NCBI RefSeq assembly: GCF_013315695.1
Contig: NZ_CP054353.1
DNA from: Escherichia coli
GTDB lineage: Bacteria > Pseudomonadota > Gammaproteobacteria > Enterobacterales > Enterobacteriaceae
Length of the DNA: 64,000 nucleotides
Reading direction: 5' to 3' (one strand)
The position numbers are program-made. This document shows, piece by piece, positions 9,001 to 12,000 of the stretch. Each line of letters begins with the position of its first letter. The first letter of the stretch is position 1.

Positions 9001-12000
9001 CAGTATTAATGGGGGCGTCATGAACTACGAGATTAAGCAGGAAGATAAACGTACCGTTGCAGGTTTCCATCTCGTTGGCCCGTGGGAACAGACGGTAAAG
9101 AAAGGCTTTGAGCAGTTGATGATGTGGATAGATAGCAAAAATATTGTGCCGAAGGAGTGGGTTGCTGTCTATTACGACAATCCAGATGAAACACCCGCCG
9201 AAAAATTACGCTGCGACACCGTCGTGACGGTGCCGAATAACTTTACGCTCCCCGAAAACAGTGAGGGCGTCATTCTGACAGAAATTTCAGGTGGTCAGTA
9301 TGCGGTGGCGGTGGCTCGTGTAGTCGGTGATGATTTTGCTAAACCCTGGTATCAGTTCTTTAATAGCCTCTTGCAGGACAGTGCCTATGAAATGTTACCA
9401 AAGCCCTGCTTCGAGGTTTACTTGAACAATGGCGCGGAAGATGGGTACTGGGATATCGAAATGTATGTTGCGGTGCAGCCAAAACATCACTAATTCATCT
9501 CAGGGCGGTGTGTTGACGCGAAGACCACTCTTTTTTTGAAAGCGAAAAGAGTAAGATGCGCCTTTCAAATTTTTCGCTCCTGCCGGGAAATTACACTGTT
9601 CCCGGTATGTCCGTCGGATAACTCAGAGGCGCGCCTTCTGGCCGACAGATGTGTTATGAGCGCTTTTAATCTTCATTACGGAGTTTCTGCGTGCGTGCCG
9701 ATAAGTCATTAAGCCCGTTTGAAATCCGGGTATACCGCCATTACCGCATTGTGCATGGTACTCGGGTCGCGCTGGCATTCCTGCTCACTTTTCTCATTAT
9801 CCGCCTGTTTACTATCCCGGAAAGCACCTGGCCGCTGGTCACCATGGTGGTGATTATGGGGCCAATCTCGTTCTGGGGGAACGTTGTCCCTCGTGCCTTC
9901 GAACGTATTGGCGGTACGGTGTTGGGTTCGATTTTAGGTCTTATCGCTCTGCAACTGGAGTTAATTTCGTTACCGCTGATGTTAGTCTGGTGCGCGGCGG
10001 CGATGTTTCTTTGCGGTTGGCTGGCGCTGGGCAAGAAACCGTATCAAGGATTATTGATTGGGGTGACGCTGGCAATTGTTGTGGGTTCCCCGACAGGTGA
10101 AATTGATACGGCGTTATGGCGAAGCGGCGATGTGATCCTCGGCTCTTTACTGGCAATGTTGTTTACCGGTATCTGGCCACAACGGGCGTTCATCCACTGG
10201 CGCATTCAACTGGCGAAAAGTCTGACCGAGTATAATCGGGTCTATCAATCTGCATTCTCACCGAACTTACTCGAACGCCCACGTCTGGAAAGCCATCTAC
10301 AAAAACTGCTGACCGATGCCGTGAAAATGCGTGGGCTGATTGCGCCCGCCAGCAAAGAAACCCGTATTCCCAAATCGATATATGAAGGTATCCAGACCAT
10401 TAATCGCAATCTGGTTTGTATGCTGGAGTTGCAAATCAATGCATACTGGGCCACGCGCCCCAGCCATTTCGTGTTATTGAACGCGCAAAAACTTCGTGAT
10501 ACCCAGCACATGATGCAGCAAATACTGCTGAGCCTTGTTCATGCGCTGTACGAAGGTAATCCGCAGCCGGTTTTTTCCAATACGGAAAAATTGAACGATG
10601 CTGTGGAAGAGCTGCGTCAGTTGCTCGATAACCACCATGACCTGAAAGTCGTGGAAACACCAATCTATGGTTATGTGTGGCTGAACATGGAAACGGCACA
10701 TCAGCTTGAGTTGCTATCGAATCTGATTTGCCGGGCCTTGCGCAAATAATTCCTGAACTTCAGAATCATCTTGCTGCTGCTTCGATTCAGCAAGGATAAA
10801 GGGTATGATAGTGAAAAGGGATAAAAGCATTGTCATCTGCGGCAGCTATGAGTAATGTTGGCCCTAACGAATAGCGGTTGCTTAAACGAATCCGACTCTC
10901 ACATTATCAGGGGTATAAAAATGGAAACTACCAAGCCTTCATTCCAGGACGTACTGGAATTTGTTCGTCTGTTCCGTCGTAAGAACAAACTGCAACGTGA
11001 AATTCAGGACGTTGAGAAAAAGATCCGTGACAACCAGAAGCGCGTCCTGTTGCTGGACAACCTGAGCGATTACATCAAGCCAGGGATGAGCGTTGAAGCA
11101 ATCCAGGGCATCATCGCCAGCATGAAAGGTGACTATGAAGATCGCGTTGACGATTACATCATCAAAAATGCCGAGCTCTCCAAAGAACGCCGCGATATCT
11201 CCAAAAAGCTGAAAGCTATGGGCGAAATGAAAAACGGCGAAGCGAAGTAATTCCCGTTTTATTCAATGAGGGTTGCCCGGCAACCCTCATTGCTCATTGA
11301 TTCTTATCTGTGTATCACCGTCATCATTCTCATCTGAGAACCAATCGAAATTAACAACAGCCTTCTTCTGTATGCAGCAAGGCAAAAAGTTCTGTAACTC
11401 CATTGTTATTAACTGCACTGGTTACTAACACGTTGTGCGCTCCAGCTTCCCGTAACCAACTTTTCACCAAAGATATTTGTTCCATGCTGGCTAAATCTGC
11501 TTTGGTTACTACTCCAATGACCGGGTGATTCATGGCCCGGTAGGGCGTTTTTACCTCTAATTCCTGCTTCAGCGCTGAGATTCCTGCTTGTTGCCGGAAA
11601 AGCAGGCACCTGCCGTCTGAACGGTATCGATCCGGAAGCGTATCTGCGCCATATTCTGAGCATACTGCCGGAATGGCCCTCCAACCGTGTTGACGAACTC
11701 CTGCCATGGAACGTAGTTCTCACCAATAAATAAGCGTCAATACGGTGCTCCGTTGACGCTTACTTTAATCCGTTTTCTGAGCTTAGATTTTTCTGTTCCT
11801 ACCCAGACCGTGGATTTGGAATTCATTTTTTGTCAGGTCAATGCTAATCGTTAAAACGGCCATAACGCACCTCCACTGGAAGGTTTATCAGTAATATCCT
11901 ACCGTTGCTTCATGGTCGGGGCGTCCATTCCATTATTATCGGTTTTCCTTTCTGTTTATAAATGAAAACGCCAGCTGTATTCAGGCTGGCGTCAGGGGAA

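What the first reader, a model, noticed from the sequence alone, without database searches (positions are those of the whole stretch)
11351..11763. Chimeric junction of an IS66 3' fragment and a GTPase gene fragment
The ORF track's 118-aa minus-strand ORF is not a gene. On the plus strand there is the last 45 or so codons of an IS66-type transposase plus its terminal repeat; on the minus strand there is the C-terminal end of an EutP-like GTPase. This is a scar from old IS activity at the edge of the prophage remnant.
Basis: partly seen in the sequence, partly recalled or inferred. Interest (0 to 1): 0.3.

Follow-up and report, generated by a model that had tools for sequence, protein, structure and literature searches.

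The report
Gene-fragment scar: E. coli yoeF/yoeD
This is the well-known yoeF/yoeD spot of E. coli, a non-functional patchwork of four gene fragments left where a genomic island replaced the propanediol-utilisation operon; it is ordinary, though the reference K-12 genome still lists the patchwork reading frame as a putative protein.

Summary
Window 11605-11763 (+) is the last 159 bp of a 2,532-bp ISEc23-type IS66 element: 42 codons plus stop of the transposase, then the 24-nt terminal repeat. Window 11351-11533 (-) is the last 60 codons of a PduV/EutP GTPase.

Three points correct or sharpen the reading.
- The GTPase piece is the remnant of chromosomal pduV in its native place next to tmaR/yeeX. 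644 of 5,426 complete E. coli genomes have intact pduV and the pdu operon there.
- The two fragments do not touch. Between them lie 71 bp (11534-11604) from the island's terminal DUF4942-family gene, fused in frame to pduV at a shared ATGAA. So the pduV break is not an IS end.
- The IS66 piece lies inside an IS110-family remnant (11764 onward). 656 genomes keep 1,311 bp of IS110 and DUF4942 sequence where the window has the IS66 piece.

The 118-aa ORF is K-12 yoeF (b4538) and the IS66 piece is pseudogene yoeD (b4642). The annotated CP4-44 boundary maps to window 11534. The ORF joins antisense IS66, DUF4942 and PduV-tail codons and lacks the P-loop, so it is very unlikely to be a gene. Already known; low interest.

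The parts
11351..11533 (-). pduV 3' remnant: last 60 codons plus stop of the PduV GTPase, the last gene of the pdu operon. The ATG at 11533-11531 is pduV Met88 and is used as the start of the 60-aa CDS that PGAP annotates. The 5 bases 11529-11533 (TTCAT on the plus strand, ATGAA on the minus strand) are the ambiguous crossover.
   Evidence: Pfam PF10662 at 5.9e-13. 95% aa identity to residues 87-146 of intact 147-aa PduV of strain DEF10. 97.2% nt identity over window 11251-11533 to the intact-pduV locus, at the same position next to tmaR.
11534..11604 (-). 71-bp internal fragment (about codons 38-61) of the DUF4942-family gene that normally ends CP4-type islands. It is fused in frame to pduV.
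   Evidence: Single copy, found only at this locus in 4,183 genomes. STO_Bone1B keeps the first 61 codons; its residues 1-57 align to residues 1-59 of a 280-aa DUF4942 protein at 56% identity, E=6e-16. About 75% nt identity to the 5' ends of DUF4942 genes, in the same orientation and synteny (yeeW-DUF957-DUF4942). The window's 19 residues alone give only E=0.052.
11605..11733 (+). Last 42 codons plus stop of an ISEc23-type IS66 transposase (tnpC). Equals K-12 pseudogene yoeD (b4642).
   Evidence: PF13817 at 8.9e-16. 96-99% nt identity to IS66/ISEc23 copies, starting exactly at 11605. PGAP label: 'transposase domain-containing protein, missing N-terminus'. yoeD coordinates.
11734..11763 (+). 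Non-coding 3' end of the IS66 element, including the 24-nt right terminal inverted repeat (11740-11763, ending ...GACGCTTAC).
   Evidence: Identical to the right end of a full-length 2,532-bp element (L007 628-3159), whose inverted repeats pair GTAAGCGTAAACTGACCGCCGTAT with ATACGGTGCTCCGTTGACGCTTAC.
11764..11771 (.). TTTAATCC: the inferred surviving copy of the 8-bp target duplication made when the IS66 inserted.
   Evidence: Inference. Homology to the uninterrupted IS110 remnant resumes at exactly this base. Full-length ISEc23 copies nearby carry 8-bp duplications: GACATTAT in C288 and TTATTAAC in NR1441.
11764..11863 (-). First 33 codons (MAVLTISIDLTKNEFQIHGL...) of an IS110-family transposase pseudogene. 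Its 5' non-coding end continues rightwards to about 12020, before the DUF957 remnant (12022-12114) and yeeW (12148-12342).
   Evidence: 95-99% collinear with genomes that keep the rest of the gene. There PGAP calls it 'IS110 family RNA-guided transposase, frameshifted; internal stop' (L006 1536-2564). PF02371 at 8.7e-11 on the downstream 129-aa ORF in STO_Bone1B. The 26-aa piece alone gives no Pfam hit.
11351..11707 (-). 118-aa chimeric ORF, K-12 yoeF (b4538). Residues 1-34 are antisense to the IS66 tnpC fragment, residue 35 spans the junction, residues 36-58 come from DUF4942, and residues 59-118 are the PduV tail.
   Evidence: Coordinates, with piece boundaries from the rows above.

Best explanation
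The region is a dead mosaic scar at the tmaR-proximal edge of a CP4-44-type genomic island. It has four layers.

1. Ancestral state. The pdu operon ended here with pduV, convergent with tmaR.

2. Loss of pdu. In the lineage of the window the pdu-pocR block is replaced by an island remnant (window 11534-16954). On this side the join is an illegitimate, microhomology-type deletion. It fused codon about 61 of the island's terminal DUF4942-family gene in frame to codon 88 of pduV, at a shared ATGAA.

3. IS110 insertion. An IS110-family element had inserted upstream of the DUF4942 gene and then decayed.

4. IS66 insertion and deletion. An ISEc23-type IS66 transposed into that IS110 remnant, at a target TTTAATCC. 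A later deletion ran from inside the IS66 tnpC gene to DUF4942 codon about 38. It removed 2,373 bp of the IS66, 1.3 kb of IS110 and the DUF4942 start. What remains is 159 bp of IS66 next to 71 bp of DUF4942.

Nothing here is expected to work:
- The PduV tail lacks the P-loop and the rest of its N-terminal two-thirds.
- The IS66 piece has one end and no transposase.
- The 118-aa ORF (yoeF) is an accidental open frame across three unrelated pieces.

What is shown: the identity and exact limits of every piece, and the existence of the pre-IS66 and pre-deletion architectures in other genomes. What is inferred: the order of events and the deletion mechanisms.
For: - Family matches are above the curated cut-offs.
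- Intact pduV and the pdu operon sit at the same site next to tmaR in DEF10. 644 genomes carry pduV-pduU-pduT.
- The alignment shows that pduV identity ends at 11533.
- STO_Bone1B-type genomes (656) share window 11251-11604 and 11764-12400, but have 1,311 bp of IS110 and DUF4942 5' sequence in place of the IS66 piece.
- The DUF4942 identity of the 5' part of the STO_Bone1B chimera is supported at E=6e-16, with matching synteny in an intact island.
- ATGAA is shared by both parents at the crossover.
- The IS66 limits and inverted repeat are fixed against a full-length element.
- Independent full-length ISEc23 insertions with 8-bp duplications lie 113 bp away (C288) and inside pduV' (NR1441).
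- RefSeq K-12 puts the CP4-44 boundary at 2078748, which equals window 11534, and annotates yoeD as a pseudogene.
- The cbi' remnant and cobU lie at the other edge of the island.
Against: - No genome was found with a full IS66 at exactly the 11763/11764 junction. The 'insertion then deletion' step therefore rests on analogy with nearby independent insertions.
- No full-length DUF4942 gene closer than about 75% nt or 56% aa identity was found. The crossover microhomology is therefore read from a paralogue, not from the true parent allele.
- The order 'island first or pdu deletion first' is unresolved. The island-free genome L008 has different break-points on both sides.
- The ORF is intact in all six copies compared. 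One TraDIS library reports depletion of insertions in yoeD and yoeF under gentamicin (PMC10879529).
Confidence: 0.9

Rival explanations
1. One reading: an IS66 element (or an IS66-mediated adjacent deletion) directly truncated a GTPase gene, so that the IS66 3' fragment and the GTPase fragment form one junction.
For: Both fragments are real and lie 71 bp apart. IS66 elements insert repeatedly in this neighbourhood.
Against: - 71 bp of DUF4942-family sequence separate the two fragments.
- 656 genomes have the identical pduV break at 11533 with no IS66 sequence present.
- The pduV junction lies 71 bp from the truncated internal end of the IS66, not at an IS terminus.
- The crossover shows a shared ATGAA, typical of illegitimate recombination.
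Confidence: 0.04
2. yoeF is a real, newly born chimeric protein-coding gene, or the locus yields a functional transcript that affects fitness, for example under aminoglycoside stress.
For: - It is annotated as a CDS in NC_000913.3.
- The ORF is open in six copies from diverse strains.
- TraDIS depletion under gentamicin: yoeD log2FC -6.46, yoeF -4.11 and neighbouring yeeS -3.27 (PMC10879529).
- A polymorphic ISEc23 insertion here is associated with resistance phenotypes (10.1101/527788).
Against: - The first 34 codons are antisense to a transposase fragment, and the next 24 come from another gene.
- The only family match is a GTPase tail without G1-G3 motifs.
- The N-terminal half is replaced by different sequence in the STO_Bone1B class.
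- PGAP calls only the 60-aa tail.
- The copies differ at 0-8 of 650 sites, so an open frame carries no weight.
- The TraDIS signal comes from one library, in very short features next to a toxin-antitoxin pair, where polar effects are likely.
- The GWAS signal has opposite signs in the two collections, as expected of a lineage marker.
- Promoter-like sites do not exceed chance.
Confidence: 0.05
3. The GTPase fragment is cargo of the island or prophage (a eutP-like gene brought in by the mobile element), not chromosomal pduV.
For: It lies immediately next to island DNA, and PGAP names it only 'EutP/PduV family'.
Against: - 97% nt identity continues through the tmaR-pduV spacer into intact pduV at the same chromosomal position in pdu-positive strains.
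- An island-free genome keeps a longer pduV remnant (about 299 bp) at the same site.
- The curated CP4-44 boundary excludes it.
Confidence: 0.01

Closest known systems
E. coli K-12 yoeF (b4538) / yoeD (b4642) at the right end of cryptic prophage CP4-44
   Same: Same locus and same architecture. It is 99.7% identical over 650 bp (2 differences). yoeF equals window 11351-11707, yoeD equals 11605-11733, and the CP4-44 end equals 11534. 3,179 of 5,426 complete genomes share it. CFT073 is 100% identical over 11200-12187.
   Different: Nothing in the mosaic itself. The island behind it is much shorter in the window (about 5.4 kb to the cbi'/cobU side, and interrupted by an IS3-family element) than K-12's CP4-44.
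PduV, the GTPase that is the last gene of the propanediol-utilisation (pdu) microcompartment operon (Pfam PduV-EutP, PF10662)
   Same: The last 60 residues are 95% identical to intact E. coli PduV, at the orthologous position convergent with tmaR.
   Different: Residues 1-87, including the P-loop GPSQCGKT seen in the intact protein, are missing, and the rest of the pdu operon is absent. It cannot act as a GTPase; that follows from the established requirement of the G1 motif in P-loop GTPases.
ISEc23-type IS66-family insertion sequence (tnpA-tnpB-tnpC, 2.5 kb, inverted repeats starting GTAAGCG, 8-bp target duplication)
   Same: The last 159 bp are 96-99% identical, including the tnpC C-terminal domain and the complete right inverted repeat.
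   Different: Only 6% of the element remains. There is no left end, no tnpA or tnpB and no catalytic part of tnpC, so it is immobile.
DUF4942-family terminal gene of CP4-type islands (order yeeS-yeeT-cbeA-cbtA-yeeW/DUF5983-DUF957-DUF4942)
   Same: Same orientation and relative position. The N-terminal region is homologous, seen through the longer STO_Bone1B fragment.
   Different: Only about 24 codons remain, from upstream of the Pfam DUF4942 domain (which spans residues 87-275). The closest intact relative found is only 56% aa or about 75% nt identical.
IS110-family (DEDD, 'RNA-guided') transposase element
   Same: The first 33 codons and the 5' non-coding end are collinear with a decayed copy annotated as such in 656 genomes.
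   Different: It is truncated by the IS66 insertion and deletion. There is no Rfam match for any RNA in 11000-12400. No intact copy of this particular element was seen.

Membership tests
PduV/EutP GTPase family (PF10662) | Sequence match above Pfam's gathering score | tested here: met
   49.3 bits against a cut-off of 21, E=5.9e-13, but covering only profile positions 86-142 of 143.
PduV/EutP GTPase family (PF10662) | Complete P-loop GTPase domain (G1 Walker A motif and switch regions) | tested here: not met
   The fragment starts at the residue equivalent to Met88. Intact DEF10 PduV has GPSQCGKT at residues 8-15 and matches the profile over 1-142.
PduV/EutP GTPase family (PF10662) | Orthology to pduV: last gene of the pdu operon, next to tmaR/yeeX | tested here: met
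   Same position and 97% nt identity, including the spacer, to genomes with intact pduV-pduU-pduT.
IS66 family, ISEc23 type | Transposase C-terminal domain (PF13817) | tested here: met
   58.2 bits against a cut-off of 30, E=8.9e-16.
IS66 family, ISEc23 type | Terminal inverted repeat of the family (outer end GTAAGCG...) | tested here: met
   The 24-nt right repeat at 11740-11763 is identical to that of a full-length element.
IS66 family, ISEc23 type | Complete element: two inverted repeats plus tnpA, tnpB and full tnpC | tested here: not met
   Only the last 159 of 2,532 bp are present; identity starts at 11605.
IS66 family, ISEc23 type | 8-bp target-site duplication | tested here: inconclusive
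   Only the right flank survives (TTTAATCC). Nearby full copies do show 8-bp duplications.
DUF4942 family (PF13708) | Match to the DUF4942 domain | tested here: not met
   The domain covers residues 87-275 of the intact protein, while the fragment comes from codons about 38-61. No Pfam hit is possible or seen.
DUF4942 family (PF13708) | Homology to the N-terminal region of DUF4942 proteins, with island synteny | tested here: met
   STO_Bone1B fragment: 56% identity over 59 residues, E=6e-16. Window's 19 residues alone: E=0.052. Synteny yeeW-DUF957-DUF4942 is present.
IS110 family | Transposase domains (DEDD N-terminal; PF02371 C-terminal) | tested here: inconclusive
   The window keeps only 33 codons, with no Pfam hit on their own. 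The collinear longer copy has PF02371 at 8.7e-11 and PGAP's IS110 label.

The most novel reading that the evidence does not exclude
The scar is not inert. Either the chimeric yoeF frame (or a transcript across it) is expressed and contributes to fitness under aminoglycoside stress, or the AT-rich stretch around the ISEc23 remnant is a genuine hot spot for ISEc23 insertion, and its occupancy changes expression of the adjacent cbtA/cbeA toxin-antitoxin pair or of tmaR. That would explain the TraDIS depletion and the GWAS signals reported at this site.
Probability: 0.05. Interest if true: 0.35.

Novelty: already known. Interest (0 to 1): 0.08.

Why it matters
It matters little biologically. It is a fossil that records how most E. 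coli lost the propanediol-utilisation operon at the point where a CP4-44-type island now sits.

There are three practical points:
- The reference K-12 annotation still carries the 118-aa chimera as a putative protein (yoeF), and the 2024 y-ome survey counts it among uncharacterised genes. The dissection here gives a clear reason to retire it as a pseudogene mosaic.
- PGAP's 60-aa 'EutP/PduV family microcompartment system protein' is only a gene tail.
- The site is polymorphic. There are at least four architectures plus fresh ISEc23 insertions, and one class carries a 159-bp ISEc23 end. IS-insertion callers and GWAS at yeeW-yeeX may therefore be reading lineage markers rather than causal insertions.

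Tried and rejected
- Rfam scan of 11000-12400 at E<=1: no RNA family, including nothing for the IS110 5' end.
- Promoter and terminator consensus scan of 11200-12200: 2 promoter-like sites against 1.3 expected, 0 terminator-like sites; nothing beyond chance.
- Search for the direct intermediate (a longer or full IS66 abutting 11764), using a synthetic IS66-plus-flank query. It found only independent insertions at other positions (C288, H10407) and a second full copy inside pduV' (NR1441). There was no true intermediate.
- Search of 5.8 billion proteins for a closer full-length parent of the DUF4942 fragment: all 13 hits are short E. coli proteins of 39-102 aa that match the chimera at 82-100% identity, and none is a full-length DUF4942 protein.
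- Test for selection on the 118-aa frame: six copies differ at 0-8 of 650 sites, with 0-2 synonymous and 0-2 non-synonymous codon changes. This is uninformative.
- I considered that the 71 bp might be a divergent part of pduV, of the IS66 or of the IS110 end. This was rejected. There is no similarity to intact pduV beyond 11533, none to full-length ISEc23 upstream of 11605, and the segment matches the 5' ends of DUF4942 genes instead.
- Whether the island type derives from the island-free deletion type could not be decided. The island type has lost 116 bp more of pduV and 169 bp more on the cobU side, which fits either order.
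Full report
**What is in the sequence**

The window is E. coli. The genes sbmC, yeeA and tmaR/yeeX (10921-11250, +) are followed on the minus strand by yeeW, cbtA, cbeA, yeeT and yeeS, which belong to a CP4-44-type island.

The 118-aa minus-strand ORF at 11351-11707 is present. Its residues 57-112 match Pfam PduV-EutP (E=5.9e-13, 49.3 bits against a cut-off of 21), but only the last third of the profile, positions 86-142 of 143. The plus-strand translation of 11569-11733 matches the IS66 transposase C-terminal domain PF13817 (E=8.9e-16, 58.2 bits against a cut-off of 30).

**Exact limits of the IS66 piece**

Megablast against 5,426 complete E. coli genomes shows that IS66 elements match only window 11605-11763. 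A full-length ISEc23-type element on plasmid pEC2547-3 is 2,532 bp long (L007 628-3159). It carries tnpA, tnpB and a 537-aa tnpC, and has 24-nt terminal inverted repeats (GTAAGCGTAAACTGACCGCCGTAT / ATACGGTGCTCCGTTGACGCTTAC).

The alignment shows identity beginning at GGCACCTGCC (11605) and ending at ...GACGCTTAC (11763). The window therefore keeps:
- 42 codons plus stop (11605-11733);
- 30 non-coding bases that include the whole right inverted repeat.

That is 159 of 2,532 bp.

**The GTPase piece is pduV, in its native place**

In strain DEF10 the same site, with the same spacer after tmaR, holds an intact 147-aa EutP/PduV-family gene. It is preceded by pduU, pduT, pduS, pduQ, pduP and the rest of the pdu operon, then pduF, pocR, a cobalamin riboswitch, a cbi remnant and cobUST.

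Window 11251-11533 is 97.2% identical to that locus. The last 60 residues are 95% identical to PduV 87-146. 644 genomes carry pduV-pduU-pduT here. The fragment is thus the remnant of chromosomal pduV, not island cargo. It lacks residues 1-87, including the P-loop GPSQCGKT visible in the intact protein.

**The two fragments do not touch**

Identity to intact pduV stops at 11533 and IS66 identity starts at 11605. The 71 bp between them are single-copy and occur only at this locus, in 4,183 genomes.

Strain STO_Bone1B, and 656 genomes of its type, share window 11251-11604 and 11764-12400. Where the window has the 159-bp IS66 piece, they carry 1,311 bp of other DNA. That 1,311 bp plus the 71 bp consists of two things:

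- A decayed IS110-family transposase gene. PGAP annotates it as 'IS110 family RNA-guided transposase, frameshifted; internal stop'. Pfam PF02371 matches its 129-aa ORF at 8.7e-11.
- The first 61 codons of a gene whose product aligns to residues 1-59 of a 280-aa DUF4942 protein (56% identity, E=6e-16). Its DNA matches the 5' ends of DUF4942 genes at about 75%.

In an intact island of this type the gene order is ...cbtA, DUF5983 (yeeW), DUF957, DUF4942, then the island end. So the 71 bp are codons about 38-61 of the island's terminal gene. The stretch right of the IS66 repeat (11764-11863, minus strand, MAVLTISIDLTKNEFQIHGL...) is the start of the IS110-family gene.

**The pduV break**

I made a three-way alignment in coding orientation:
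- DUF4942: ...GGGCC ATGAA ACAG...
- pduV: ...CGTCA ATGAA TCGC...
- chimera: ...GGGCC ATGAA TCAC...

. The crossover lies in a shared ATGAA and keeps the frame. This is the signature of an illegitimate, microhomology-type deletion, not of an IS end. The same break is present in genomes that have no IS66 here, so the IS66 cannot have caused it.

One caveat applies. The DUF4942 sequence used is a paralogue at about 75% identity. A search of 5.8 billion proteins returned only short E. coli proteins (39-102 aa) that match the chimera, and no closer full-length parent.

**How the IS66 piece got there (inferred)**

Homology to the uninterrupted IS110 remnant resumes at the first base after the IS66 repeat (TTTAATCC...). 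This is what a normal IS66 insertion with an 8-bp duplication would give.

Full-length ISEc23 copies have inserted independently close by:
- in C288, 113 bp away in the same IS110 remnant, with duplication GACATTAT;
- in H10407, at a third point;
- in NR1441, inside pduV' at window 11406-11413, with duplication TTATTAAC.

A preprint also reports a polymorphic ISEc23 insertion at CFT073 2368401, which maps to window about 11385 (10.1101/527788).

The left edge of the window's IS66 piece is an internal point of tnpC, joined to DUF4942 codon about 38 with no microhomology. I read this as a later deletion. It removed 2,373 bp of the IS66, the rest of the IS110 remnant and the DUF4942 start. I found no genome that preserves the intermediate, so this step is inference.

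**Wider context**

In the window the island remnant runs only from 11534 to 16954. From 16955 the cbi remnant and cobU (17251), cobS, cobT and ldtA follow.

An island-free genome (19SZHZ803Rt) has tmaR, a longer pduV' (about 299 bp), the cbi remnant and cobU, with a 5-bp overlap at its own junction. Compared with that genome, the island type has lost 116 bp more of pduV and 169 bp more on the cobU side. I could not decide which state came first.

**Comparison with what is known**

The mosaic is the K-12 locus yoeF/yoeD. In NC_000913.3:
- yoeF (b4538, CDS, 'putative uncharacterized protein', 357 bp) equals window 11351-11707;
- yoeD (b4642, pseudogene, 129 bp) equals 11605-11733;
- the 'cryptic prophage CP4-44' feature ends at 2078748, which maps to window 11534, exactly the pduV/DUF4942 junction derived here.

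PGAP annotates a 60-aa 'EutP/PduV family microcompartment system protein' and a partial 'transposase domain-containing protein' in thousands of genomes. 3,179 of 5,426 genomes have the window's architecture, and CFT073 is identical over 11200-12187. In the searchable literature yoeF appears only in gene lists, among them the 2024 y-ome survey, which counts it as uncharacterised (PMC11551758).

**Is the ORF a gene?**

Residues 1-34 are antisense to the tnpC fragment. Residue 35 spans a junction. Residues 36-58 are DUF4942 codons, and residues 59-118 are the PduV tail. In the STO_Bone1B class the N-terminal half is a different sequence.

The frame is open in the six copies compared, but they differ at only 0-8 of 650 positions, so this carries no weight. 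Promoter-like sites do not exceed chance and no Rfam family matches.

The only hints of function are:
- one TraDIS library in which insertions in yoeD, yoeF and nearby yeeS are depleted under gentamicin (PMC10879529);
- the GWAS signal of the preprint, which has opposite signs in its two collections.

Both are more simply explained by polar effects next to the cbtA/cbeA toxin-antitoxin pair, by small-feature noise and by lineage structure. I put about 5% on any real function.

**Verdict**

The feature is an already-annotated, ordinary decay product. The added value here is the exact four-part anatomy, the identification of the GTPase piece as the pduV remnant, and the demonstration that the pduV truncation is independent of the IS66.

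Noticed in passing
window 11764-12020 (minus strand): 5' end (33 codons plus upstream non-coding end) of an IS110-family 'RNA-guided' transposase pseudogene, cut off by the IS66 piece. 656 genomes keep a longer, frameshifted copy. No Rfam RNA match in this stretch.
   Followed up: partly
window 11534-16954 and 16955-17250: The island remnant is only about 5.4 kb and sits exactly where pduU...pduA-pduF-pocR-riboswitch lie in pdu-positive E. coli. A cbi remnant precedes cobU (17251). An island-free genome (L008) shows a different, cleaner pduV'-cbi' deletion with a 5-bp overlap.
   Followed up: partly
window 11385-11413; loci L009, L010, L011: Full-length ISEc23-type IS66 copies have inserted independently at three or more AT-rich points within about 450 bp of this scar. 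The 8-bp duplications confirmed on both flanks are GACATTAT and TTATTAAC; ATTATTAT and TTTAATCC are read from the right flank only. A preprint reports such an insertion as a GWAS hit for carbapenem resistance. The resident 159-bp ISEc23 end could confuse read-based insertion callers.
   Followed up: partly
window 11264-11292: A 29-bp near-perfect inverted repeat (aatgagggttgcc/gggcaaccctcatt) lies between the convergent tmaR and pduV' ends. It is probably their shared transcription terminator, although the simple terminator scan did not call it because there is no T-run.
   Followed up: no
window 7206-8963: An ISL3-family transposase gene (406 aa, NCBIfam NF033550 at 6e-98) and a 172-aa ORF with no family match lie between dacD and sbmC. 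This insertion is absent from CFT073, strain 203740 and K-12 at that position.
   Followed up: partly
window 14497-15710 (minus strand): An IS3-family element (orfA 15363-15710, orfB 14497-15243) abuts the antirestriction-like ORF (14020-14484) and cuts the island short. K-12 has yeeR and flu beyond yeeS instead.
   Followed up: no
window 12802-13095 (minus strand): The cbeA antitoxin ORF listed here is 97 aa from a GTG start, against 122 aa (369 bp) in K-12. The start may simply be mis-picked by the mechanical ORF list, or the gene may be altered. cbtA (12339-12713) is intact.
   Followed up: no
window 34359-55567 (minus strand): A TonB-dependent siderophore receptor (673 aa) and very large NRPS/PKS-type ORFs (1,193-1,865 aa) form a siderophore biosynthesis island downstream of cobUST-ldtA. 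It is probably the yersiniabactin high-pathogenicity island at an asn tRNA, but it was not identified by name here.
   Followed up: no
K-12 literature (PMC10879529): TraDIS in MG1655 carrying aac(3)-IV: insertions in yoeD (log2FC -6.46), yoeF (-4.11) and yeeS (-3.27) were depleted with gentamicin, in one of three libraries. This is unexplained; polar effects on cbtA/cbeA are a candidate.
   Followed up: no
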